From assembly GCA_910584255.1 (NCBI GenBank), contig CAJTXV010000001.1, forward strand, positions 81,318-145,317: a DNA stretch of 64,000 nt. Reading direction: 5' to 3'. This document shows, piece by piece, positions 20,570 through 56,023 of this stretch. Both the position numbers and the translations under genes were made by a program. The DNA is from an uncultured Bacilli bacterium (lineage in GTDB: Bacteria > Bacillota_I > Bacilli_A > RF39 > UBA660). The first letter of the stretch is position 1; each line of letters begins with the position of its first letter. A model generated the notes under the pieces. The model worked only from the letters and a program-made list of their open reading frames with translations, did no database searches and was not told the origin of the DNA.

Positions 20570-21712
20570 CTAATCTAAATAAATAAAACCTATAATATTT
20601 AACCCACTACTTTTACTTTCTATTCTATACTCATCGAAAGATGAATAAGTTTTAGTTCTCACCATTTCTTCTGCATGTTCATTTGCATATTCTACCTGAC
20701 TGCATGAACCATCACTACACTTATTTCCAACATTTCCTTCGCTTATTGTAATGCTCTTTCCATCATAAGACTCTACAAATGCAACATGACCAAATTTTCT
20801 TCCTGCTAATACAACAACAGACTTTGCAGAAGGTTGTGTACCAGTTTGATATCCCATGGCAATAGCTTTAGATAACCACGTTTGTGCATTACCTGTAGGC
20901 ATCTTTTTATTTGTTAGTTCTAATGCTCTTCCAAATGAATACCAAGTGCATTGACCTTTATATCCAGATGTTGTTAAAGTATTTTTGGAATTATAGAAAT
21001 CACTTTTTAAATTTGCTTGAGTTTTTGTTGTATCAAATACAGGAACATGAGTTTTAAATCCATTGCCCAATCCTTCAGCATAATCTGGAGAACTATATAC
21101 CATGTCCAATATTTCTAACTGATCATTAGAGAACCACGTATCTTTACCATCTGTTACTTTCTTTTTTTTGTTGTATTCTGCTATATAGGAATAATTATAT
21201 CTACACCACTCCATATAGTCTTGATACATCCCATTTGTAATAATTAGTACAGGAATTTCTTCTTCGATTATTTCACCAGATTCATTTGTTTTTTCTATTT
21301 TTTGTTTTGTTTCCTCGTGTTTTTCATATAATCCTGCTGCCTTAAATTTCTCAAGTAAATCTTTTTCTGCTTGATCATAATTTAACTCTGACAATGTAGA
21401 ATGAATAATAGCAAGTGGAATTCTCCAATCAACTCTTCCATAATCTCCATCAACACCTATAACAATTCCCTTTGGATTATTATTAACCCACTCATCCACT
21501 TGCCTGTTATATTCATTTTGAACAGAAATCATATATTCATTATATTTTGATAGTACACTATCATTAGAACTGCCACTACCAAAAATAGACCCTAAAGCAA
21601 CTATAATTAGAATAACAAGTGCAGCTGGAATCATAATTTCAGCAAGCGATATAAATAAACTCATTAACATTTTTAACATTTTTAGCAACATTTGTTTTGC
21701 AACCTGAGCCAA
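20570..21712 (-). CDS. T4SS-associated CHAP-domain peptidoglycan hydrolase (VirB1 functional analog) with N-terminal TM; in-frame open extension up to about 22426
   Basis: GQCTWYSFGRA (Cys) ... GHVAFVESYDG (His) is a CHAP domain; TTG start at 21712; the same frame stays open for about 238 more codons upstream with no ATG/GTG/TTG. Confidence 0.7.
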   Translation of the reverse strand: MAQVAKQMLLKMLKMLMSLFISLAEIMIPAALVILIIVALGSIFGSGSSNDSVLSKYNEYMISVQNEYNRQVDEWVNNNPKGIVIGVDGDYGRVDWRIPLAIIHSTLSELNYDQAEKDLLEKFKAAGLYEKHEETKQKIEKTNESGEIIEEEIPVLIITNGMYQDYMEWCRYNYSYIAEYNKKKKVTDGKDTWFSNDQLEILDMVYSSPDYAEGLGNGFKTHVPVFDTTKTQANLKSDFYNSKNTLTTSGYKGQCTWYSFGRALELTNKKMPTGNAQTWLSKAIAMGYQTGTQPSAKSVVVLAGRKFGHVAFVESYDGKSITISEGNVGNKCSDGSCSQVEYANEHAEEMVRTKTYSSFDEYRIESKSSGLNIIGFIYLD

Positions 21713-22462
21713 TTTTTTTCCTATAGTCTGTTTAAATTTATTCTTAATTGGCGTTGTAATTTTTTTTGTAACTTTTTTTGCTGTTTTTCCAGTTTTTGTT
21801 TTAAGTTTTCTTCCTATCTTATCACTTATATATTCAGAACCTGTACCATCATTACTAATTGCTTTATTTAATTCTCTAGACGTTTTAGTTATTGTCTTGC
21901 CAAATTTAGAAATTTTTTCTCCACTTTTACTAACAACTGTAACCGTTTTAGATAATTTTCCTTGATTATCATTAAACTTAAAGGTCTTTTTTGCAACCTT
22001 ATTAATTCCAGTCTTTAATCTGCTTTTTTTAGGAACATCTTTATCATTATCTTCAGAAGATATATTTTCAATATTTTCTTCACTATTACTAGCATTAGTT
22101 TTTAACCTGCTAGATGAACCTTCAGTTGAATATTGATCTGCATTTTCCTTTTCTTGATTATTTGCCGAAGTTTTTAATCTTGTACAGGAATTCTCTTTAT
22201 TGGAATTACTTTCAACTTCATTGGAATCATTTGTTTTTTCCTCTTCTTCTTTCTTTTTTTGTTCTTCTTCTAAAATTTTTATTTCCCTATTTTCTTTAAT
22301 ATCTGATAATTTTTTTGCCCCTTTATCTACTAAATCAAAAGAATGAGATGATAATGAAGAAGAAAAGGTTGATAATCTATCTATGGATTTCTTGGTATCT
22401 TTTTCTGAATTATTATTCAGTATGAATCACCTATCCTTTCAATAATTTAAAATCATTAAAAA

Positions 22463-24886
22463 TCATCTTGCTTGTACTTGATTGTCTGTATTATTAATCT
22501 TATATAATAAGTAATCTTTAGGAATTTTATTTGAAAAAGGAATAACATCAGAACCAAATACTAATAACCCCTGACCAGTTGGGGCATCTCCTTCTACATA
22601 TCTACTTTCTTCTTCACTTATCCCAAAGATATTACATATTGCTGGAAGATCTAATGTTTTTTGTTTTAATATAACAGCAAATTCTGAATTAGAAAGCATT
22701 TTTCTACCCTGTTCATTGTTTAGCATGTCTGCTATATTTTGTGTTATTATTGTATTCATTCCTAATAGTTTTCTTCCTACCTTATAAGTAGTTGCTAAAT
22801 ATTGTGCAGAATAAGGGTTTGCAAGTAAAATGTGAGCTTCATCAGTAAAATTCCAAGTATATTTTCCTAAAGTCTTGTTATATGCTAATCTATTTTGAAT
22901 ATAATCAAGAACTACTAAATACCCTGTTGTCTGTAATGATGCTGAAAGCTCACTAATATCAAAGCAAACAAGCCTTTTCTTGATATTAACATTAGTTTGT
23001 TTAGCAAATAAGTCCATCGACCCTTTTACAAATCTCTCAATTATTAGAGCCAAATCTTTTGACTCTTGCTCTGGTTGTTTAAGAAGCATATTGTAAAAAT
23101 CTGGCAGTGTTGGAAGCAATGTTTTATCTTGATAATTACTTTTTTCATATTCCTCGAATACAAGTTTAGTACATCTATCAATAATCGTTTTTTGACCACC
23201 ACTAAGTCCATTTGCACCAACTATACTTTCAAGGAATGCTATAATGTACTCCGTTTTTGATTTTATGGGATTATTTCTACCACTCTCATTAAATCCATAA
23301 TTTAAATCTAAATCAAAAGGATTTATATAGGTGTTAGATGTTGCAGAAATAGTTATCTTTTGACTTTCTTCCTTAAAAGCATCTAATAATGAGCCATACT
23401 CATTTTGTGGATCAATAATGAAGATATCATCATTAGGATAACGAATCATTATCTGCTCTATAATTGTTTTTACATTAAATGATTTTCCAGCACCACTTGT
23501 AGCTAATACACACCCATTTCCATTAATTAATTTTTTTCTATCACAGAATATAGAATTCTTACTTACTAAATTCACTCCATAATATAGCGACTTTTCATGC
23601 AAGAAGTCTTTTGAGTTGAAAGGTACATTAACAGCTGTTGCCTCACTTGTAAGTGTTCTTTGAAATTGAATAGAATTATGACCTAAAGGAAGAAGATTTT
23701 GTAATCCTTCTAATTGTTGCCATAAAAGTGAACGAACCTCAACCAACATTTCAGCTGCAACCTCCTGAACTTTTATAGTTTGATCTTCCAAATCTTCAAA
23801 ACTATTGGCAGAAATACAAATCAATGTATTATTTTGAAATATTTTTTGATTATTTTTTTGAAGATCATATTGAAGCTGTTCTGCATTTAAAATCTTTGTC
23901 TCTAATTTTTTATCCTTTACCCATTCATAATCTAGATGACTTTTACCAGCACGCTTAATTTTTTCAAGACGTTCGGTTTCCATTGCCGACAAGGATTTAT
24001 CTACTTGTTTCATCATCTTAGCAGCATTTGTCGGAGTTATATTTAGTGTTGTTATTAAATTTACTTCTTCTAAAGTAGTAATGCGATTATAAAATCTTGG
24101 AGTTAGACTTTTTGGTAATTTAGAAACATATAATACTCTTAAAAATTTTTTATCATCTATTTCTATAAAATCAGATTCTCTCATAGAAATTTTTTTAGGT
24201 GCAATAGCATCAAAAATTGTCATATTATTTTCTTGAGCATAAGTAATTATATTATCTATATTTCTAGTTTCTAAAGTTTCTACATTGAAGAAGTTATATA
24301 AAAACTTTAATCTTTCTTTCATACTAACTAACGTAATCTTTGACTTTAATTCTTTAAATTTCTGTTCGGTTTTTAAAAAGATATTTAAAAACAAAGCATT
24401 TGCTTCAATAAAGTCCTTTGCTTTCAAAGACACTACAATAAATCTTTTTGTCTGTAATATTTCTTCATTAGACCCTAGTGAATTTACAATGATTGTATTT
24501 AATTCATCTGCTATCTTTTTTTGCTTATCATCTATTAACTGTTCAGTATCAAATATAAACTTTTCTTTATACTTTTCAGTTTTAATAGGAGTTCCTGCAT
24601 TAATAACTGCAATATGATTATCCTCTCTAAATGAATGAAGATATTCAAGCCATTTAAAGAAAATATTTTCTGCTTCTTCATCGTTTGCTTTAGCAAATGA
24701 TACATCAGTATATTCAATACAAATAGAGTATTCATCATCTCCTATTTTTAAAATATTAGTTTTTTCATCAAAGTCCTGAAACATATAAGAAATTACCTCT
24801 TGACTTGTTTTTGGGGTAAAGACTTTTGGAATAACTCTAATTTTTGGTTTATTCTTTTGACGATTCTTCTTCAACTTTTGCTTCAT
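22463..24886 (-). CDS. VirB4/TrbE-family conjugative ATPase
   Basis: 807 aa; Walker A CVLATSGAGKSFNVK; Walker B-like DEAH; typical Gram-positive VirB4 size. Confidence 0.85.
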   Translation of the reverse strand: MKQKLKKNRQKNKPKIRVIPKVFTPKTSQEVISYMFQDFDEKTNILKIGDDEYSICIEYTDVSFAKANDEEAENIFFKWLEYLHSFREDNHIAVINAGTPIKTEKYKEKFIFDTEQLIDDKQKKIADELNTIIVNSLGSNEEILQTKRFIVVSLKAKDFIEANALFLNIFLKTEQKFKELKSKITLVSMKERLKFLYNFFNVETLETRNIDNIITYAQENNMTIFDAIAPKKISMRESDFIEIDDKKFLRVLYVSKLPKSLTPRFYNRITTLEEVNLITTLNITPTNAAKMMKQVDKSLSAMETERLEKIKRAGKSHLDYEWVKDKKLETKILNAEQLQYDLQKNNQKIFQNNTLICISANSFEDLEDQTIKVQEVAAEMLVEVRSLLWQQLEGLQNLLPLGHNSIQFQRTLTSEATAVNVPFNSKDFLHEKSLYYGVNLVSKNSIFCDRKKLINGNGCVLATSGAGKSFNVKTIIEQIMIRYPNDDIFIIDPQNEYGSLLDAFKEESQKITISATSNTYINPFDLDLNYGFNESGRNNPIKSKTEYIIAFLESIVGANGLSGGQKTIIDRCTKLVFEEYEKSNYQDKTLLPTLPDFYNMLLKQPEQESKDLALIIERFVKGSMDLFAKQTNVNIKKRLVCFDISELSASLQTTGYLVVLDYIQNRLAYNKTLGKYTWNFTDEAHILLANPYSAQYLATTYKVGRKLLGMNTIITQNIADMLNNEQGRKMLSNSEFAVILKQKTLDLPAICNIFGISEEESRYVEGDAPTGQGLLVFGSDVIPFSNKIPKDYLLYKINNTDNQVQAR

Positions 24887-34341: not shown

Positions 34342-35373
34342 TCACCTTTCTATTTCATAATCTTCTGTATTTACTTGGGATTCGATATTATGACACATCT
34401 TATCAAATATTTCTTTATCCTTTTCAATGGCAATACTATTTCTTTTTGTATTAAAACAGGCAATAACAAAGTTTCCACTACCAGCAAACTGATCAAGTAA
34501 TGTTTCATAAGGTTTAGAAATGTACTCAATAATATTTTCTAAAAGACTTACTGGTTTTTCAGCTTCCATTACTTTCTCTTTTTTGCCTCTAGGTTGATAG
34601 TCAAAAGAAGTGGGAAGCATACCAGAAGTTCCTTTCATATAACAAACTTCTAATTCATTTTCTACCAATAGATCTCTAACTTCATAAGAATTTTTACCTT
34701 TAATATCAATATTATTTTTTAAGGCAGTTTCAATATTTTTTTTGGCATCCAATTTTAATGCTCTTGGTTCACCTTTAGAAAAAATCATAACATCTTCTGA
34801 GTTTTTTGATTTTCTACCAGTATTTGCAATAAAAGTTCCTTTTATCCAAGGAACTTTTGCAAAATACTTAAAGCCACTTTTAATTGCCATCTCTTTTATT
34901 TTATAAAGATACTCAAAATTTATTTCAGATTCTTCAGGAAGAAACTCTACCATAAATGAACCATTTTTTAAAACTCGTTGTTTTTCATCAAAATCTTTTT
35001 GATTATATTTAAACAATTCATAAGTTGCGAATTTTCTATTTCCTCCTGTAAGAGCTTTGTTTAAATCATAAGGATGATCAGTTATAATGCCATCTATCGA
35101 ATTAGATTCAATCATAGATAAGTCTCTTCCATCACCGTTAATTAATAAACAATTGTTTTGATTTCCATCAATTTGAGATGAAACTTTATAAACACCTCTT
35201 GATATTTTTTGAAACAATCCTTTATCTACACCCTCGTATATTCTTGCCCTAATTGATTCATTATTTACATTCAATTTATTCACCTTTTTAACCAATGTTG
35301 TAGCTTCTTGAATTGTAAATTGTTCTTCATCTAAAAAGTATTGAAACAAATTCATTTGGATACTATTATTCAT
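34342..35373 (-). CDS. Orphan beta-class DNA N6-adenine/N4-cytosine methyltransferase; tail ...EDYEIER
   Basis: Motif IV variant ITDHPYDL (DPPY-like) precedes motif I LLDQFAGSGNFVIA; AEKPVSLLENII matches the HPTQKP-type block. Confidence 0.75.
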   Translation of the reverse strand: MNNSIQMNLFQYFLDEEQFTIQEATTLVKKVNKLNVNNESIRARIYEGVDKGLFQKISRGVYKVSSQIDGNQNNCLLINGDGRDLSMIESNSIDGIITDHPYDLNKALTGGNRKFATYELFKYNQKDFDEKQRVLKNGSFMVEFLPEESEINFEYLYKIKEMAIKSGFKYFAKVPWIKGTFIANTGRKSKNSEDVMIFSKGEPRALKLDAKKNIETALKNNIDIKGKNSYEVRDLLVENELEVCYMKGTSGMLPTSFDYQPRGKKEKVMEAEKPVSLLENIIEYISKPYETLLDQFAGSGNFVIACFNTKRNSIAIEKDKEIFDKMCHNIESQVNTEDYEIER

Positions 35374-36244
35374 TTGACATATCCCATTTCTTTGTATCTA
35401 TTCCCAACACAATATAGCTTTCCTTAAAATAATTGCATACAAATTTTCTTTGATTTTCATTTATTAAAGACAATTCTTTTTCTGTATCTCCTTTATAACT
35501 ACCATAAGGGCAGCCCATACATCCAGTACGTTCAATATATTTATATACTTTAGGAATTTCTATTTTGTATTTTTCATATATCTCATCTAGCAATTCATTA
35601 GTCAAATCATGAATTGGAGTAAACTTTTTATCTTTCGTAAAACAAGTAGTATACTGAGTTTTTCGTAACGCTCCTTCTGATTGTCTAACTCCCAAAATAG
35701 CTTTTTTGCCTGTTTCTTTTTCATATCTATGAAAAGGATCTTTTTTTAAATATTGACAGCATTTTGGACTAACTTTGTGCAATTTATCATTTAGTAATAA
35801 AGTTCTTGCTTTTTTATTCAAAGAAAAAGAGCTAGAATGTATTTTTCCATCTCTTCCAATAAATTTTCTTGAATTAACTCTTTCCATTAATGATCTAGTT
35901 CTACATCCTCTCTGATACCTATCTATAAAATCATCCTGAATTTTACTAAAACATGGTATTCCATACTTTGCCTTTATTTCTAATGGCTTTATTCTTGGAA
36001 ATAAAACTTTATCACTATTTTTAATTATTCTTTGTAAGATTTCATGATGCTCCATGTAGGTATTACACCCTACAATTTCTATACTGCTAAACTCTGGTGC
36101 ATATTCTTTGATAAACCAATATAAAAAATGACTATCTTTCCCTCCACTATAGGATAAATAATATTTTTCTAATCCTATTTTCTTAATTTTGTTAAATTTG
36201 GATTTTAAATCTTCTAAATAAAAATCAACATTATCTATATAAAT
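35366..36244 (-). CDS. PAPS-reductase-like PP-loop protein (DndC/DUF3440-like); 5' end extended beyond the tracked ORF, probable ATT/ATA start
   Basis: Frame continuous upstream of the tracked ATG (36055) encodes ...LEKYYLSYSGGKDSHFLYWF, a PP-loop SGGKDS; no ATG/GTG/TTG upstream; ATT at 36244-36242 lies 4 nt after GGAGG; 8-nt overlap with the MTase. Confidence 0.55.
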   Translation of the reverse strand: MYIDNVDFYLEDLKSKFNKIKKIGLEKYYLSYSGGKDSHFLYWFIKEYAPEFSSIEIVGCNTYMEHHEILQRIIKNSDKVLFPRIKPLEIKAKYGIPCFSKIQDDFIDRYQRGCRTRSLMERVNSRKFIGRDGKIHSSSFSLNKKARTLLLNDKLHKVSPKCCQYLKKDPFHRYEKETGKKAILGVRQSEGALRKTQYTTCFTKDKKFTPIHDLTNELLDEIYEKYKIEIPKVYKYIERTGCMGCPYGSYKGDTEKELSLINENQRKFVCNYFKESYIVLGIDTKKWDMSNE

Positions 36245-36301
36245 TTCCCCTCCTTTTTTTACTTCATATAGTTCATGTATGAGTAATCCAAATCTTTATT
36301 T

Positions 36302-36916
36302 TTATTCTTCTAACTTTCTAAAAAAACGTTGTAGAGTATACTGTTTCATCTTCGGGTGTTGGAGAGTATCTGTATGCAAAGCTTGATTCAATGAAAATAC
36401 AAAGGAACTATTATATAAATTATTTTCTTGTGTGCTACAATTCCATAGTTCACAAGTGGCTTCTTGAAATGACTTTACTAGATTGTAATTTCGATTAGAT
36501 GTCATTGCATCAAAAGAATCAGCAACTGCCAAAATCTGTGCAAAGCAAGGAATAGTAGATCCTAATAATTGATAAGGATATCCACTACCATCTAACCTTT
36601 CATGATGAGTAACAATAACTTCTAACAACTTAGAATCATAATCTTGTAATATTTTTTTTGCATACAAAGGGTGATTTTTGATTTTTTCATATTCTTGCTC
36701 TGTTAGTTTACTAGGTTTTTTTAAAATAGAGTCTGGAATATATAACTTTCCGATATCATGCAACAATGCAGAAACTACTAAAAATGATAACTGTTCATTC
36801 GTATATTCTAATGTTTTTCCAATAAGATAGGAATATTGAGCAACACGAATTGAATGATAATAAGTATTCAAATCTTTCTTTTTTAATAGTTCTAAATAGT
36901 GTTCTACATCCTTCAT
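36302..36916 (-). CDS. Stand-alone HD-GYP domain phosphohydrolase
   Basis: LHDIGK (HD) and HHERLDGSGYP (HD-GYP signature); no sensor domain. Confidence 0.75.
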   Translation of the reverse strand: MKDVEHYLELLKKKDLNTYYHSIRVAQYSYLIGKTLEYTNEQLSFLVVSALLHDIGKLYIPDSILKKPSKLTEQEYEKIKNHPLYAKKILQDYDSKLLEVIVTHHERLDGSGYPYQLLGSTIPCFAQILAVADSFDAMTSNRNYNLVKSFQEATCELWNCSTQENNLYNSSFVFSLNQALHTDTLQHPKMKQYTLQRFFRKLEE

Positions 36917-36975
36917 AAAATTTTTTCATCTACATTCATTTTGCTTATTTGAATTTTCAGTTTTATCATTCCCTT

Positions 36976-44949: not shown

Positions 44950-47900
44950 CTATTTTTTTAATTGTAATAAAACTTTAGATTCTAACAACTCTACTTCTTT
45001 TTCATAATCAAAATCATCAGTTTTATCAAATGATAAAGTAGATAAAGTCTCTGATGCTATTTGTTCTTTATAACTATCTAACATAGCTTTGACTTTTTCA
45101 TCATCAGTAACGATATTTAATTTAATTCTATCAACAACATCATAGTCAGCTTCTTTTCTTGCAACTTGACATTGTCTCAATAATTTTCTATACATGAATT
45201 CCTCATATAATTGATCATCAATAGTAATATCAAGTGCTACAAATTTACCTTGTTCTTCAGCAACTTTAACACCATCATTATACTTATATTCGACTTTTAA
45301 TGTTTCAGGAACTATATTGATTCCATCAAGTACCATTTCTTCATTTTTAGAATATTTATTATATAAATCTTTCATATCTTCTTCATTCAAATTTAATAAT
45401 AATTCTTTAACATGATTTACTTTTTCCTTATAAGTCATACCTGCTACTTTAAAATCCAATGTAAGATAAGGGGTACATAATGAATCAGTATTATCAAGAT
45501 ATTCAATTTCCTTAACATTTAATTCATCCAATAAGATTTGTTCATATTCATCTAACGAAATATGTTTGAATCCACATAACGATAATTTTCTTAATGGTTG
45601 AGTTAATTTCAAATTATTTTCATTTTTAATTCTTAAAGCCATTGTTACAATATTTCTAACTTCATCTGTTTCCTCAAGTAACTTTTCATCATATTCTTTA
45701 ACTTCTGGAAAGTTAGATAAATGTACTGAGATGGCTTCTTTTGGTTCAACATGAAGAATTAAATCTTTCCAAATATGATCAGTCATAAATGGTATTATTG
45801 GAGCCATTACTTGAGTCATCTGTTTTAGTGCTTTATATAATGATTGATATGCTGAATATTTTTCATCATTCATTTCAGATTTCCAGAATTTTTTTCTGTT
45901 TATCTTAATATACCAATTTGATACTTCATCAACACATTCTTCAAAAATCTTAACAACATTATTTGGTTCAAAATTATCATAATATTTTTTTGCTTCAGCA
46001 ACAAATTTATTTATTCTTGTATCTAACCATTTATCACTTACACTATGTACTTTATATTCTTTTGTTAAATCTGGTTTATCAATTTCATAATATAAATCAA
46101 AGAATGCTGCAATATTATAAAAATTCATAAGTTTTCTTTTAGCTTCTTCTAACATTTTAAATCCAAATCTAATATCATTAACACGATTTGTTCCTAAATA
46201 ATTATATCTGATAGCATCTGCACCATGTATTTTAACAACATCATCAAACGTTAAATCATTCTTATTAGATTTACTAAATTTAGATCCATCTTCCTTTACA
46301 ACCATACCATAAGTACCACATTTTTCGTAAGGAATTTTATTTTCAAGTACAGTTGACATAAATAACATTGAATAGAACCATAATCTAATTTGTTCAGTAG
46401 CTTCAACTACAAGTTCTGCTGGGAAGTATTCCTTCCAATATTCTTTATCTTCAAAATACTTTAAAGTTGAATAAGGAACAATACCTGCATCTAACCAAAC
46501 ATCTCCAACTTGTTCTACTCTTTCCACTTCTTTTCCACATTCAGGGCATTTAATTTTAACTTCATCGATAAATGGACGATGTAATTCTTGTAGATTATCT
46601 ACTATCTTAGGATCAACAGCTAAATCTCTTAATTCTTCTTTAGAACCAATTACTGTTAAATGACCACACTCACATTTATAGAATGGCAATGGTAATCCAT
46701 AGAATCTTCTTCTAGAAATATTCCATGCTCCCATATTTGTAAGCCAATCTAACATTCTTTTTTCTTGATATTCTGGAGTATATTTAACTTTTTTCGCATT
46801 TTCGATTAATTGTTCTCTTATTGGGTCAACATCTATTGCCCACTCTTTAACAAGTCTAAACATAATATCTTGTTTACATCTCCAGCAATATGGATATGCG
46901 TGTTTATAATCATGCGTAAAGAATAATTTTCCTCTTTTATCTAGTTCTTCAAATACTAAATCTTGAACTTCCCTAGCATTTTTACCAGATAAGAATCCAA
47001 AGTTATCATATACATAACCAGATTCATCAATTGGAATTATTTTATCTAATCCTAAAGATTCTCCTAATTCAAAATCTTCTGCTCCACAACCTGGTGCTAT
47101 ATGAACTATACCTGATCCTTCCGAATTATCTACCATATCCCATAAAACTATGTTATGTTTTACACCATCTTGTGCTGGTATTTCTGGAAAGCAAGTTTCA
47201 AATTCTAATCCTTCTAATTCCTTACCTTTAACGATTTCTATAACTTTTGCTTTTTCTTTAAATTTTCTTTCAAATACATCTTTGCATAACAATAATTTTT
47301 CTCCATCAAAGTCAGCAATTACATAATCAAATTCTGGATTAACAGCTAAAGCAACATTGGCACATAATGTCCAAGGAGTTGTTGTCCATACAAGGGCTTT
47401 ATAATCTTTTCCTACAATTGGTAGTTTAAAGAATACTGCCTTACAAGTAACATCATGATAACTACCTGTCATTTCATGTTCAGATAAAGATGTTCCACAT
47501 CTTATACACCAAGGCATAGGTTTATAAGTCTCTTTTATTAATCCTTTTTCATTACATTTTTTTAAGAAATACCAAATACTTGTAATGTTATTATCTGCCA
47601 AAGTATAGTATGAATTATCCCAATCCATCCATTGACCAAGTCTTTTTGATTGTTCAGTAATAATTCCTGAGAATTTTTTTACACGATCAACACAGGCATT
47701 AGTAAAGTTTTCAAGACCAAAGTTTTCAACATCCTTTTTATTTTTAAATCCTAAATCTTTTTCTACTTCTACTTCTACCCAAAGTCCTTGACCATCAAAG
47801 CCATTTCTATAATGAGTAATATATCCATTCATTGCTTTATATCTAATAAAACAGTCTTTTAAACTTCTACCAAAAGCATGATGGACACCCATTTTATTAT

Positions 47901-48045
47901 TTGCTGTAATAGGACCATCTATGAAACGATACTTCTTACCATTTTTGTTTTTCTCTCTTAGCTTTTCAAAACAATTTTCTTCTTGCCAATATTGAATTAC
48001 TTCTTCTTCATTTTTGACAAAATCATAATTTTTCATATTTGCCAT
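44950..48045 (-). CDS. ileS: Isoleucyl-tRNA synthetase paralog (type-2/eukaryote-like class I aaRS) with a non-canonical HIGH region
   Basis: 1031 aa; GPITANNKMGVHHAFG where P-P-T-A-N-G-x-P-H-x-G-H-A is expected; editing-domain TTTPWTLCANVALAV; Zn motifs WCIRCGTSLSEHE and CPECGKEV; KMSKS as KFSKS; no T-box recognised in the 310-nt leader. Confidence 0.75.
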   Translation of the reverse strand: MANMKNYDFVKNEEEVIQYWQEENCFEKLREKNKNGKKYRFIDGPITANNKMGVHHAFGRSLKDCFIRYKAMNGYITHYRNGFDGQGLWVEVEVEKDLGFKNKKDVENFGLENFTNACVDRVKKFSGIITEQSKRLGQWMDWDNSYYTLADNNITSIWYFLKKCNEKGLIKETYKPMPWCIRCGTSLSEHEMTGSYHDVTCKAVFFKLPIVGKDYKALVWTTTPWTLCANVALAVNPEFDYVIADFDGEKLLLCKDVFERKFKEKAKVIEIVKGKELEGLEFETCFPEIPAQDGVKHNIVLWDMVDNSEGSGIVHIAPGCGAEDFELGESLGLDKIIPIDESGYVYDNFGFLSGKNAREVQDLVFEELDKRGKLFFTHDYKHAYPYCWRCKQDIMFRLVKEWAIDVDPIREQLIENAKKVKYTPEYQEKRMLDWLTNMGAWNISRRRFYGLPLPFYKCECGHLTVIGSKEELRDLAVDPKIVDNLQELHRPFIDEVKIKCPECGKEVERVEQVGDVWLDAGIVPYSTLKYFEDKEYWKEYFPAELVVEATEQIRLWFYSMLFMSTVLENKIPYEKCGTYGMVVKEDGSKFSKSNKNDLTFDDVVKIHGADAIRYNYLGTNRVNDIRFGFKMLEEAKRKLMNFYNIAAFFDLYYEIDKPDLTKEYKVHSVSDKWLDTRINKFVAEAKKYYDNFEPNNVVKIFEECVDEVSNWYIKINRKKFWKSEMNDEKYSAYQSLYKALKQMTQVMAPIIPFMTDHIWKDLILHVEPKEAISVHLSNFPEVKEYDEKLLEETDEVRNIVTMALRIKNENNLKLTQPLRKLSLCGFKHISLDEYEQILLDELNVKEIEYLDNTDSLCTPYLTLDFKVAGMTYKEKVNHVKELLLNLNEEDMKDLYNKYSKNEEMVLDGINIVPETLKVEYKYNDGVKVAEEQGKFVALDITIDDQLYEEFMYRKLLRQCQVARKEADYDVVDRIKLNIVTDDEKVKAMLDSYKEQIASETLSTLSFDKTDDFDYEKEVELLESKVLLQLKK

Positions 48046-54847: not shown

Positions 54848-55101
54848 TATTCAGAATCCGAATCATTTTCTACATTAGATTCTTCATCTGTTATTTTACG
54901 AACATTAACTGCTTTTTTCTTTTCGGCATCATAATCAAAAATAACTTTATCGTCTTGATCTAAACTTTTAAACCCTTTCATTTGAATATCAGAAAAGTGA
55001 ATATAAATATCATTTTCTATTTCCTCACTTGTTATAAATCCAAATCCCTTTTCACTACTAAACCATTTTACACTACCTTTTAAATTCATTTTTTCTTGCA
55101 T
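54847..55101 (-). CDS. Cold-shock domain protein (CspA family)
   Basis: GSVKWFSSEKGFGFITSEE... Confidence 0.8.
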   Translation of the reverse strand: MQEKMNLKGSVKWFSSEKGFGFITSEEIENDIYIHFSDIQMKGFKSLDQDDKVIFDYDAEKKKAVNVRKITDEESNVENDSDSE

Positions 55102-55601
55102 TTTTTATTTTCTCCTTTTCTATTCTTATATACATCATTTACTTCTTCATTACTACCTACTGCAACATTATATAACTTATCAATTCTATTTTTTATAAAA
55201 TCAATAATTAACACTACTACCAAGATAACTACAAATAAGTAAAAACTGCACATTAGACTTCCTAGAATCATAAAATTATAATTCAGCAAAGAGCTAATTG
55301 GTAAAAATAATAAACTTAAATTGATAATTGAAAACAATCTTTTTATTGATAATTTATTTTTTCTACCATAATAGAAAACTACAAATAGCATCATAACAAA
55401 GGTAATTATATAATTATTTATAATCATTTTTTTAAAGTTTAACAAATTTAATATTGCTATCTCATTCTTGCAACAATTGAGTCTATCAAATAAGCAAAAT
55501 ATTGTATCTGTAGATAGATATAAGCAATAACCTATAACAATTAATAATAATAAACTCTTAATAATTTTTAAAACAAATGATAATTTATGATAATTACGCA
55601 T
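55086..55601 (-). CDS. Polytopic membrane protein
   Basis: 171 aa with four hydrophobic helices. Confidence 0.4.
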   Translation of the reverse strand: MRNYHKLSFVLKIIKSLLLLIVIGYCLYLSTDTIFCLFDRLNCCKNEIAILNLLNFKKMIINNYIITFVMMLFVVFYYGRKNKLSIKRLFSIINLSLLFLPISSLLNYNFMILGSLMCSFYLFVVILVVVLIIDFIKNRIDKLYNVAVGSNEEVNDVYKNRKGENKKCKKK

Positions 55602-55672
55602 TCTTTTGTTATTACCTTCATCACACCAATACTGCTCAGCATTACTACCAAATAAATCCTCATAAAACTGCT

Positions 55673-56023
55673 TTACCTTTTTAATAAACTTTCCTCCTTT
55701 TTGATCTCCAATGATATGGATAAAGCATCATCAATTTTATTCATAGCTTCTGAATCCAATGTTTTAATGTAATAAACTATTTGTTCTTTTGAAATAGTCA
55801 AAATACTTTCACATAATGCCATTACATTTGGTTCTAAAACCACGTGAGTTGGCATATATATTTTTTTGAGTTTAGTTGTAAGAGGTACAACGATTATGTT
55901 TGGCGAAAAAGTATTTCCTACATTGTTTTGAACAACTATACAAGGTCTTACACCATTTTGCACATGATCATATTTACTCTCTAAATTTACAACATAAATG
56001 TCTCCTTTTCTAATATTTCTCAT
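55673..56023 (-). CDS. MazF/PemK-family endoribonuclease toxin
   Basis: RKGDIYVVNLESKYDHVQNGVRPCIVVQNN...IIVVPLTTK matches the PemK/MazF core. Confidence 0.7.
   Translation of the reverse strand: MRNIRKGDIYVVNLESKYDHVQNGVRPCIVVQNNVGNTFSPNIIVVPLTTKLKKIYMPTHVVLEPNVMALCESILTISKEQIVYYIKTLDSEAMNKIDDALSISLEIKKEESLLKR

What the first reader, a model, noticed from the sequence alone, without database searches (positions are those of the whole stretch)
34342..36244. Translationally coupled PAPS-reductase-like + orphan DNA methyltransferase module; PP-loop lies upstream of the first ATG
The tracked ORF 35366..36055 starts after the catalytic PP-loop. Reading the same frame upstream gives ...GLEKYYLSYSGGKDSHFLYWF (SGGKDS). 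It is open back to a TAA abutting the HD-GYP gene, with no ATG/GTG/TTG but an ATT 4 nt after an AAGGAGG SD. The gene overlaps the beta-class MTase by 8 nt, implying co-translation. PAPS-reductase-like proteins partner with DNA-modification and defence systems (Dnd, BREX type 4, ParB-methylase phage modules). The pair may therefore be a DNA-modification or anti-restriction unit rather than a simple orphan methylase.
Basis: partly seen in the sequence, partly recalled or inferred. Interest (0 to 1): 0.6.

Follow-up and report, generated by a model that had tools for sequence, protein, structure and literature searches.

The report
Phage-type PAPS-reductase-like gene lacking ATG start
A conjugative plasmid-like element from a low-GC gut bacterium carries an intact, phage-derived DndC/PAPS-reductase-like enzyme gene that has no normal start codon; it sits next to the element's own DNA methylase because of a lineage-specific insertion, not as part of a conserved two-gene module.

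Summary
The frame of ORF 35366..36055(-) is open up to 36295. It encodes the PP-loop SGGKDS upstream of the first ATG. It has no in-frame ATG/GTG/TTG, but a strong AAAGGAGG site is followed by ATT (4 nt later) and ATA (10 nt later). It overlaps the beta-class methylase gene by 8 nt.

The start region is identical in three assemblies, so it is not a read error. All 65 relatives examined start at ATG/GTG/TTG at positions matching the window's ATA, TAT or ATT. The window protein keeps 101/101 positions invariant in 119 homologues.

The protein (AF2 pLDDT 95) is a PAPS/APS-reductase-fold PP-loop enzyme. It has the CC...CxxC cysteines of iron-sulfur APS reductases and no C-terminal catalytic cysteine. 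It belongs to phage family PHROG 424.

The "module" is not conserved. The closest homologues sit alone in phage replication modules. The closest methylase homologues sit in syntenic conjugative elements without this gene. Homology breaks exactly at 36972 and 35375, so HD-GYP plus the PAPS-like gene are inserted cargo and the overlap is a junction by-product.

Relatives carry ArdA or RadC beside the methylase, so an anti-defence role is plausible but untested. This is a new member of a known kind, of modest interest.

The parts
35366..36244 (-). PAPS-reductase-like (DndC/SspD-like) PP-loop gene read from ATT: 292 aa (290 aa if read from ATA 36238). The public annotation calls only 35366-36055 (229 aa).
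   Evidence: PHROG 424 E=3.5e-25. AF2 model pLDDT 95.1. Fold and profile hits to PAPS/APS reductases.
36249..36256 (-). Shine-Dalgarno sequence AAAGGAGG in the 57-nt gap after the HD-GYP gene.
   Evidence: The internal ATG at 36055 has no comparable SD.
36242..36244 (-). ATT, candidate near-cognate start, 4 nt after GGAGG. It aligns with the ATG/GTG of relatives that start M-K/S-V/I-D (L028, L050, L055).
36236..36238 (-). ATA, candidate near-cognate start, 10 nt after GGAGG. It aligns with the modal ATG of relatives (MDEVDFYL...; 29 of 65 loci).
   Evidence: SD spacings of 5-12 nt are seen at canonical starts in this window.
36131..36148 (-). PP-loop motif SGGKDS (ATP pyrophosphatase signature), upstream of the first ATG.
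   Evidence: S, G, G and S are invariant and D nearly invariant in a 65-sequence family alignment reaching down to 24% identity.
36053..36055 (-). First canonical ATG, the start used by the public gene call. It lies inside the conserved domain and lacks an SD.
35756..35761 (-). Cys-Cys pair (KCCQYLKK), invariant in the family. It aligns with the CC cluster ligands of P. aeruginosa APS reductase (2GOY).
35510..35521 (-). CxxC (GCMGCP), invariant in the family. It aligns with the GCxxCT cluster ligands of 2GOY.
35366..35373 (-). 8-nt overlap between the PAPS-like stop and the methylase start (ATGAATAA). The last codons and the stop of the PAPS-like gene are supplied by the methylase 5' end.
34342..35373 (-). 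Beta-class N6/N4 DNA methyltransferase, 343 aa, with an N-terminal wHTH-like region. It is a backbone gene of this family of conjugative elements.
   Evidence: PF01555 E=8.9e-22. DHPY at aa 99 precedes FAGSG at aa 296. Conserved synteny.
36302..36916 (-). Stand-alone HD-GYP (HD_5) protein, 204 aa. It is part of the same lineage-specific insert.
   Evidence: PF13487 E=4e-32. Absent from syntenic relatives. Homologues at 40-46% identity occur in human faecal phage contigs.
35376..36971 (-). Lineage-specific cargo segment (HD-GYP plus PAPS-like gene) between the Flg_new adhesin gene and the methylase gene.
   Evidence: blastn homology to L012 ends at window 36972 and resumes at 35375 (35367 for L013).

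Best explanation
The window is part of a Prg/Pcf-like conjugative element of an uncultured, roughly 26% GC gut Firmicute. Its transfer operon carries a conserved orphan beta-class DNA methyltransferase. The slots flanking that gene vary between relatives and hold ArdA or RadC in some of them.

In this lineage the upstream slot has captured a 1.6-kb segment. The segment holds a stand-alone HD-GYP phosphodiesterase and a gene from a very common gut-phage family (PHROG 424). That family comprises PAPS-reductase-fold PP-loop ATP pyrophosphatases with the CC...CxxC cysteine tetrad that binds a [4Fe-4S] cluster in APS reductase. This makes them DndC/SspD-like. They lack the C-terminal catalytic cysteine of true sulfonucleotide reductases.

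The recombination junction lies at the methylase ATG. It produced the 8-nt overlap, which would couple methylase translation to the upstream gene incidentally.

The gene's ancestral ATG/GTG has been replaced, leaving ATT and ATA behind a perfect SD. The coding sequence is fully intact and conservative. The most likely state is therefore a functional gene translated at low level from a near-cognate start.

By inference, the enzyme adenylates a nucleic-acid-linked substrate and works as an anti-defence or DNA-modification accessory, for example against phosphorothioate-dependent restriction. It would act independently of the methylase rather than as an obligate partner.

Shown: gene identity, fold, motifs, the absent canonical start, the cargo insertion, and the lack of a conserved partner. 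Inferred: translation from ATT/ATA, iron-sulfur cluster binding, and the anti-defence role.
For: Identity and fold:
- PHROG 424 E=3.5e-25 and a partial SspD hit.
- Family profile against PDB: best hit APS reductase 2GOY, E=2.1e-12, with the CC and CxxC motifs aligned.
- AF2 model with pLDDT 95.1. Top Foldseek hits are PAPS/APS reductases and phage PAPS reductases.
- Invariant SGG.DS, CC and CxxC across 65 diverse relatives, with no invariant Cys after the CxxC.

Intactness:
- 0 of 101 invariant positions and 2 of 153 positions that are >=95% conserved are changed. Intact homologues show a median of 1 such change.

Start codon:
- No canonical start upstream of the PP-loop, with the SD kept in place.
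- 65 of 65 relatives use ATG, GTG or TTG at the aligned positions.
- The region is identical in three assemblies, one of which carries SNPs elsewhere.
- Another gene of the same element (55685..55086) has GGAGG + 7 nt + ATT and no canonical alternative. That arrangement is kept in relatives at 56% identity.

Cargo insertion:
- Homology breakpoints at 36972 and 35375.
- Syntenic relatives have other genes in the slot. ArdA and RadC flank the methylase in L108-L110.

Element type:
- Relaxase, T4CP, VirB4-like, PrgI, sortase and primase genes.

Precedent:
- A phage PAPS-domain/Dam fusion confers anti-Dnd activity.
- PAPS-reductase genes cluster in phage anti-defence hotspots.
Against: - Near-cognate ATT/ATA starts are inefficient in model bacteria (established knowledge). 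None of 65 relatives uses one, so the gene may simply be a recently inactivated pseudogene.
- One sister assembly carries Ser->Tyr at a 97%-conserved position, which hints at relaxed constraint.
- The ATT spacer (4 nt) is shorter than any GGAGG-to-start spacing seen at canonical starts in the window (5-12 nt).
- No partner genes for phosphorothioation (DndA/D/E, SspB/C, BrxC) are present in the 64-kb window.
- No member of this subfamily has a demonstrated biochemical activity.
- Pfam PF01507 does not reach E<=0.01 on this sequence.
Confidence: 0.55

Rival explanations
1. Recent start-loss pseudogene. The ancestral ATG/GTG mutated (for example ATG->ATA). The full-length protein is no longer made, and the ORF is still intact only because too little time has passed.
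For: - 65 of 65 relatives have canonical starts at the aligned positions.
- All known copies of this element are nearly clonal (0-2 SNPs per 6.6 kb), so there has been little time for decay.
- One of the two SNPs seen in a sister assembly is a Ser->Tyr change at a 97%-conserved residue of this ORF.
- A second gene, the CHAP hydrolase, has also lost its ATG.
Against: - 0 of 101 invariant residues are changed, and there are no frameshifts or stops in 292 codons of 27% GC DNA.
- A perfect SD is retained.
- All large ORFs of the element are intact, so there is no general decay.
- An ATT start with conserved SD spacing seems to be used by another gene of the same element family.
Confidence: 0.3
2. 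One reading: the PAPS-like enzyme and the methylase are a co-translated functional unit that together installs a DNA modification or counters restriction.
For: - The 8-nt overlap is real.
- The methylase's own upstream SD is weak in this lineage.
- A natural PAPS-domain/Dam methylase fusion in a Vibrio phage confers anti-Dnd activity.
- Relatives place ArdA and RadC next to the methylase.
Against: - The pairing is unique to this lineage. It is absent from the syntenic conjugative relatives and from the closest phage homologues.
- The neighbours of the family show no conserved partner.
- The overlap coincides with a recombination breakpoint.
- The methylase is PF01555 beta-class, not the Dam family of the Vibrio fusion.
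Confidence: 0.12
3. Sequencing or assembly artefact at the start codon, or the annotated 229-aa product from ATG 36055 being the real protein.
For: The window comes from metagenome-assembled genomes. Public gene callers chose ATG 36055.
Against: - Three assemblies share the region, and one differs elsewhere by SNPs.
- The 229-aa product would lack the invariant PP-loop.
- ATG 36055 has no SD and lies inside a conserved, confidently folded domain.
Confidence: 0.03

Closest known systems
PHROG 424 'phosphoadenosine phosphosulfate reductase' proteins of Firmicutes and gut phages (e.g. Bacillus phage BC-6, Clostridium phage Maintenon, C. difficile phage Hain-Saunders-2022a)
   Same: Same family (E=3.5e-25; tblastn about 30% identity). 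About 290 aa, single domain, with SGGKDS, CC and CxxC motifs. Uncultured relatives at 49-80% identity number in the hundreds to thousands.
   Different: Those genes sit in phage replication modules next to SSB, helicase or polymerase genes and start with ATG/GTG/TTG. This copy is on a conjugative element, where the family is rare (3 of 72,556 plasmid records), and it has no canonical start.
Assimilatory APS reductase with a [4Fe-4S] cluster (P. aeruginosa CysH, PDB 2GOY) and PAPS reductases (1SUR, 2OQ2)
   Same: PP-loop alpha/beta fold. The CCxxxK...GCxxC cysteines align with the cluster ligands.
   Different: No C-terminal ECGLH-type catalytic cysteine. About 13-17% identity. Extra helical insertions, with TM-scores of 0.43-0.64. 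Not expected to reduce sulfonucleotides.
DndC / SspD / BrxP, the PAPS-reductase-domain enzymes of DNA phosphorothioation systems
   Same: PAPS-reductase-like PP-loop domain and an Fe-S type cysteine motif. Partial SspD model hit at E=1.7e-7 over aa 162-247.
   Different: No DndA/D/E, SspB/C or BrxC/Z/L partners beside the gene or anywhere in the 64-kb window, nor next to its phage relatives. No DUF4007 fusion. PT synthesis needs the P-loop ATPase partner (PMC12914056).
Vibrio crassostreae phage P5a_red p0018, a PAPS-domain/Dam methylase fusion in the two-gene anti-Dnd region (Piel et al., bioRxiv 10.1101/2021.05.05.442762)
   Same: A mobile-element PAPS-reductase-like domain physically linked to a DNA adenine methylase. 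That protein has an experimentally supported anti-defence role.
   Different: That case is a single 479-aa fusion with a Dam-family domain. Here there are two genes, a PF01555 beta-class methylase, a linkage created by a lineage-specific insertion, and no functional data.
Orphan methyltransferases and ArdA/RadC establishment genes of conjugative elements
   Same: The methylase is a conserved backbone gene between the adhesin and primase/T4SS genes. Relatives carry ArdA and RadC beside it.
   Different: The target sequence and the protective role are untested. Motif IV is DHPY rather than DPPY in all 120 close homologues.

Membership tests
PP-loop ATP pyrophosphatase / PAPS-reductase-like superfamily | SGGxDS PP-loop motif near the N-terminus | tested here: met
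   SGGKDS at 36148-36131. Invariant or nearly invariant in 65 diverse relatives.
PP-loop ATP pyrophosphatase / PAPS-reductase-like superfamily | PAPS/APS-reductase-type alpha/beta fold | tested here: met
   AF2 pLDDT 95.1. Top Foldseek PDB hits are 2OQ2, 4BWV, 2GOY and 6VPU at probability 1.00. Family profile against PDB: 2GOY at 2.1e-12 and 1SUR at 3.3e-10.
Pfam PF01507 PAPS_reduct | Score above the Pfam gathering threshold | tested here: not met
   No Pfam family at E<=0.01 for the 292-aa product. Some relatives carry only faint precomputed PF01507 hits.
Sulfonucleotide (APS/PAPS) reductase, CysH | C-terminal catalytic cysteine (ECGLH motif) | tested here: not met
   No invariant Cys after the CxxC in the family alignment. 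The C-terminal tail is variable.
Iron-sulfur APS reductase / DndC-type subgroup | CC...CxxC cysteine tetrad that ligates a [4Fe-4S] cluster | tested here: met
   C160, C161, C240 and C243 (numbered from ATA) are invariant and align with the 2GOY ligand motifs. Actual cluster binding cannot be tested with these tools.
Dnd / Ssp / BREX type 4 phosphorothioation systems | Adjacent P-loop ATPase partner (DndD/SspC/BrxC) and other system genes | tested here: not met
   The neighbours are HD-GYP and a methylase. No Dnd, Ssp or Brx model was hit by 50 other window ORFs. Relatives have no conserved neighbour.
PHROG 424 (phage PAPS-reductase-like) | Profile match over the catalytic domain | tested here: met
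   E=3.5e-25, covering aa 26-253 against profile positions 161-346. The N-terminal 160 positions of the profile are absent here.
Phage PAPS-methylase anti-Dnd unit | Conserved physical or functional linkage of a PAPS domain to a DNA methylase | tested here: not met
   Linkage is found only in this lineage. About 5 of 83 related loci have an adjacent methylase, and the syntenic elements lack the PAPS-like gene.
Phage PAPS-methylase anti-Dnd unit | Protection against Dnd/PT-dependent restriction | not testable with these tools
   Needs conjugation or phage assays in Dnd+ hosts.
Beta-class N6/N4 DNA methyltransferase (PF01555) | Motif IV (D/S-P-P-Y type) N-terminal to motif I (FxGxG), and a Pfam match | tested here: met
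   PF01555 E=8.9e-22. DHPY at aa 99 and FAGSG at aa 296.
Orphan methyltransferase | No cognate restriction endonuclease in the operon | tested here: inconclusive
   The neighbouring ORFs (49, 136 and 292 aa) have no Pfam or PHROG hits, so a novel nuclease cannot be excluded.
Near-cognate (AUU/AUA) translation initiation | No canonical start, plus an SD at working distance and a homology-supported N-terminus | tested here: met
Near-cognate (AUU/AUA) translation initiation | Demonstrated initiation at that codon | not testable with these tools
   Needs Ribo-seq, N-terminal mass spectrometry or reporter fusions.

The most novel reading that the evidence does not exclude
This reading has two linked parts.

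First, three intact genes of one conjugative element lack ATG/GTG/TTG at their homology-supported starts: the PAPS-like gene (ATT/ATA), the CHAP cell-wall hydrolase (CTG/ATA), and the gene after a MazF-like toxin (ATT, conserved in relatives). The host, a low-GC Bacilli-type gut bacterium, or the element itself may therefore use near-cognate initiation systematically, perhaps to hold potentially toxic proteins at very low levels.

Second, the slot beside the backbone methylase would be an anti-defence hotspot. In this lineage it has recruited a phage DndC-like enzyme and an HD-GYP phosphodiesterase. These could counter phosphorothioate-dependent and cyclic-nucleotide-based immunity in recipients.
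Probability: 0.2. Interest if true: 0.55.

Novelty: new member of a known kind. Interest (0 to 1): 0.3.

Why it matters
- Annotation. Gene callers that allow only ATG/GTG/TTG cut off the catalytic PP-loop. The public record therefore holds a 229-aa "hypothetical protein" in place of a 290-292-aa DndC-like enzyme. The same error affects at least two more genes of this element.
- Biology. The finding documents a very abundant but uncharacterised gut-phage enzyme family moving onto a conjugative element, into a variable region that holds ArdA and RadC in relatives. That location supports the emerging view that stand-alone phage "PAPS reductases" are anti-defence or DNA-modification genes rather than sulfur-metabolism genes.
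- Limits. It does not reveal a new system. The apparent two-gene module is an accident of insertion.

Tried and rejected
- Near-identical DNA in GenBank phages and PLSDB plasmids: none found.
- Pfam on the extended protein: no hit at E<=0.01. NCBIfam gave only a sub-threshold TilS PP-loop hit.
- A PDB profile search with the shallow 20-sequence alignment reached only a generic PP-loop protein. It worked after I built a diverse 65-sequence alignment.
- Genetic code 4 as an explanation for the missing starts: rejected. 15 of 60 ORFs end in TGA with nearby back-up stops, and there are 186 TGG Trp codons. The in-frame stop upstream of the PAPS-like gene is TAA.
- Frameshifting from the out-of-frame ATG at 36231 (mini-ORF ATG TTG ATT TTT ATT TAG): rejected. 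I found no slippery heptamer by inspection, and the conserved N-terminal residues begin upstream of it.
- A conserved partner gene for the PAPS-like family: none found by clustering the upstream and downstream neighbours of 83 loci.
- HD-GYP co-occurrence with the PAPS-like gene in phage loci: none.
- Host identification from cluster names: no names are held. Relatives are labelled only 'Bacilli bacterium' or 'Clostridia bacterium' MAGs.
- Promoter and terminator scans were uninformative in this AT-rich DNA: 26 sites found against 28 expected.
Full report
**1. Observation**

All genes in this part of the window lie on the minus strand, and GC content is about 26%. The frame of the listed ORF 35366..36055 stays open upstream to 36295. 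It is bounded by TAA 36298-36296, three bases after the stop of the HD-GYP gene.

The extension reads EIYIDNVDFYLEDLKSKFNKIKKIGLEKYYLSYSGGKDSHFLYWF... The PP-loop SGGKDS (36148-36131) therefore lies 5' of the first ATG.

There is no in-frame ATG, GTG or TTG in those 80 codons. Only one other of the 60 long ORFs on this strand has more than 45 open codons before its first canonical start.

A perfect AAAGGAGG ends at 36249. ATT follows after 4 nt (36244), TAT after 7 nt and ATA after 10 nt (36238). The internal ATG at 36055 has no comparable SD.

The PAPS-like stop (35368-35366) and the methylase ATG (35373) overlap by 8 nt. The methylase has DHPY at aa 99 ahead of FAGSG at aa 296, and it matches PF01555 at E=8.9e-22.

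**2. Not an artefact**

A search of 5.8 billion proteins found 2,080 homologues. The only 100% match is the public, truncated 229-aa call. The 119 other best hits listed (of 2,080) are 278-303 aa, 71-80% identical, and cover the extension.

The same locus is present in three MAG assemblies and one Logan contig. The three MAG assemblies span the start region, and it is identical in them. GCA_948705595.1 differs from the window by two SNPs elsewhere, so it is an independent sample.

The window protein deviates at 0 of 101 positions that are invariant in 119 close homologues. It deviates at 2 of 153 positions that are >=95% conserved. Intact homologues show a median of 1 such deviation.

**3. The start codon**

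In 65 related loci that include the N-terminus, every gene has a canonical start upstream of the PP-loop: 51 ATG, 9 GTG and 5 TTG. Aligned on the conserved D-x-V-D-F-Y-L, relatives begin at three neighbouring positions.
- The commonest position (M-D-E-V-D-F-Y-L) corresponds to the window's ATA.
- M-I-D-E-V... corresponds to TAT.
- M-K/S-V/I-D-E-V..., as in L028, L050 and L055, corresponds to ATT. L028 and L050 also share the GGAGGGG SD.

The ancestral ATG/GTG has therefore been replaced. The full protein can be made only from ATT or ATA.

GGAGG-to-start spacings at canonical starts in this window are 5-12 nt. That favours ATA (10 nt) slightly over ATT (4 nt), but I cannot decide between them.

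Two further genes of the same element show the same problem.
- The CHAP hydrolase gene (22426..20570) is open for 238 codons before its first canonical start. Its 600-620-aa homologues start MNNN..., and their ATG aligns with the window's CTG at 22420.
- The gene after a MazF-like toxin has GGAGG + 7 nt + ATT (55685), an in-frame stop just upstream, and 28 conserved codons before its first ATG. Relatives at 56% identity keep the same SD-7-ATT arrangement.

Genetic code 4 is excluded. This pattern raises the chance that near-cognate initiation really works in this host.

Against that, a sister assembly carries Ser->Tyr at a 97%-conserved residue of the PAPS-like ORF. That is a weak hint of relaxed constraint.

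**4. What the protein is**

Pfam does not reach threshold. PHROG 424, "phosphoadenosine phosphosulfate reductase", matches at E=3.5e-25, and a PADLOC SspD model matches the C-terminal half.

A scan of 1.84 billion cluster representatives found 867 related clusters. In a 65-sequence alignment reaching down to 24% identity, the invariant positions are S, G, G and S of the PP-loop, a CC pair with a following Lys, and CxxC.

A profile of that alignment hits the iron-sulfur APS reductase of P. aeruginosa best (2GOY, E=2.1e-12). CCxxxK and GCxxC align with the enzyme's CC and CxxC motifs, which bind its [4Fe-4S] cluster according to established knowledge of APS reductases. CysD, CysH and FAD synthase follow.

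The AlphaFold model is confident (pLDDT 95.1, pTM 0.90). Its best solved-structure matches are PAPS/APS reductases. Its best viral matches are phage "PAPS reductases".

There is no conserved cysteine after the CxxC, so the thiol that sulfonucleotide reductases need is missing.

The protein is therefore a DndC/SspD-like PP-loop enzyme with a probable Fe-S cluster. It is not a sulfate-assimilation enzyme.

**5. Where the family lives**

The close relatives (49-80% identity) are on 30-50-kb phage-like contigs, usually just after SSB in the replication module. GenBank relatives at about 30% identity are in Bacillus, Clostridium, Clostridioides, Ruminococcus and Vibrio phages. There they sit beside helicase, polymerase or SSB genes.

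Only 3 of 72,556 plasmid records contain a homologue.

Clustering the immediate neighbours in 83 loci gave no conserved partner. The largest family was 4 of 60. About 5 loci have a DNA methylase directly adjacent, and about 12-14 have one within 4 kb. No HD-GYP homologue accompanies the gene in phages.

**6. What the window is**

The window encodes a MobA/VirD2-type relaxase, a VirD4-type coupling protein, a VirB4-like ATPase, PrgI, a CHAP hydrolase, a sortase, SpaA and Flg_new adhesins, a 1,004-aa primase, SSB and a resolvase. It is a Gram-positive conjugative element. The longest contig that holds it is 145 kb.

The methylase has about 1,650 homologues. Those at 75-90% identity lie in syntenic elements with the order adhesin, adhesin, [slot], methylase, small ORFs, 289-292-aa protein, primase. 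The slot holds any of the following:
- an unrelated 115-aa or 244-aa protein;
- two small ORFs;
- RadC, with ArdA just downstream of the methylase.

blastn homology between the window and L012 ends at 36972 and resumes at 35375, two bases before the methylase ATG (for L013 it resumes at 35367). HD-GYP plus the PAPS-like gene (36971..35376) is therefore lineage-specific cargo.

The last two codons and the stop of the PAPS-like gene are supplied by the methylase's own 5' end (ATG AAT AA). That is why the C-terminus is shorter than in homologues, and why an 8-nt overlap exists.

**7. Mechanism and comparison with known systems**

DndC, SspD and BrxP are the PAPS-reductase-domain components of DNA phosphorothioation. 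They need a P-loop ATPase partner (PMC12914056; PMC10853773). No such partner is present next to this gene, in the 64-kb window, or next to its phage relatives.

The nearest functional precedent is a Vibrio phage protein that fuses a PAPS domain to a Dam methylase; together with one adjacent phage-specific gene it lets the phage escape Dnd (bioRxiv 10.1101/2021.05.05.442762). A 2026 survey also notes that PAPS-reductase genes fall in phage anti-defence hotspots (PMC13551039).

Given the ArdA- and RadC-containing neighbourhood in relatives, the most reasonable reading is an anti-defence or DNA-modification accessory. It was captured from a phage and acts on its own. This step is inference.

**8. 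Verdict**

The family assignment is right, and the non-canonical start is real in the DNA.
- The "module" interpretation is not supported. The two genes are juxtaposed by a lineage-specific insertion.
- This is a new member of a known kind, with a useful annotation correction.
- A possibly interesting side pattern is that three genes in one element lack canonical starts.
- Interest: 0.3.

Noticed in passing
window 20570-22465 (-): The CHAP/NlpC-P60-type T4SS hydrolase gene is open for 238 codons before its first canonical start (TTG 21712). The public call is 380 aa. Homologues are 600-620 aa and start MNNN..., and their ATG aligns with the window's CTG at 22420. ATA at 22423 lies 10 nt after an AAAGGA. 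Three in-frame TGAs (22465, 22441, 22429) separate it from the VirB4-like ORF in the same frame. Relatives instead have a TAATG stop/start overlap.
   Followed up: partly
window 55086-55730 (-); L102-L105: The gene downstream of a PemK/MazF-like toxin (55673-56023) has GGAGG + 7 nt + ATT (55685), an in-frame TGA just upstream, and 28 conserved codons before its first ATG (55601). Relatives at 56% identity keep the SD-7-ATT arrangement. This is a probable genuine ATT start and is mis-called by standard gene finders.
   Followed up: partly
window 35829 (PAPS-like codon 139 from ATT); L009: The sister assembly GCA_948705595.1 has C->A, giving Ser->Tyr at a residue that is Ser in 115 of 119 homologues. 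It is one of only two SNPs in 6.6 kb.
   Followed up: yes
window 36214-36231 (-): An out-of-frame mini-ORF, ATG TTG ATT TTT ATT TAG, starts 17 nt after the SD, inside the N-terminal coding region of the PAPS-like gene. It could compete for initiating ribosomes.
   Followed up: no
window 44950-48045 (-): A full-length class I aminoacyl-tRNA synthetase (tRNA-synt_1, Anticodon_1 and DUF5915 domains; 1,031 aa; PHROG 12710) is carried on the conjugative element. It may be an extra or resistance-type synthetase.
   Followed up: no
L108-L110 (relatives of the methylase, 75% identity): In these elements the methylase is flanked by RadC upstream and by a 125-aa ORF plus ArdA downstream. That marks the neighbourhood as an establishment/anti-restriction region.
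   Followed up: partly
window 36302-36916 (-): A stand-alone 204-aa HD-GYP protein (HHERLDGSGYP) was co-inserted with the PAPS-like gene. Homologues at 40-46% identity occur in human faecal phage contigs. It could degrade cyclic (di)nucleotide signals.
   Followed up: partly
window, one of the ORFs scanned (not located): One ORF matches the PADLOC model RT_UG29 (defence-associated reverse transcriptase) at E=1.3e-34. I did not determine which ORF it is.
   Followed up: no
L086, L093, L096; ON453900.1 (Clostridium phage Maintenon) 16390-17390: Several phage copies of the PAPS-like gene are split into two ORFs by a frameshift or stop. Inactivated copies therefore do occur in the family.
   Followed up: no
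window 34342-35373 (-) and 120 homologues: Motif IV of the methylase is DHPY, not the usual DPPY or SPPY, in all 120 close homologues.
   Followed up: partly
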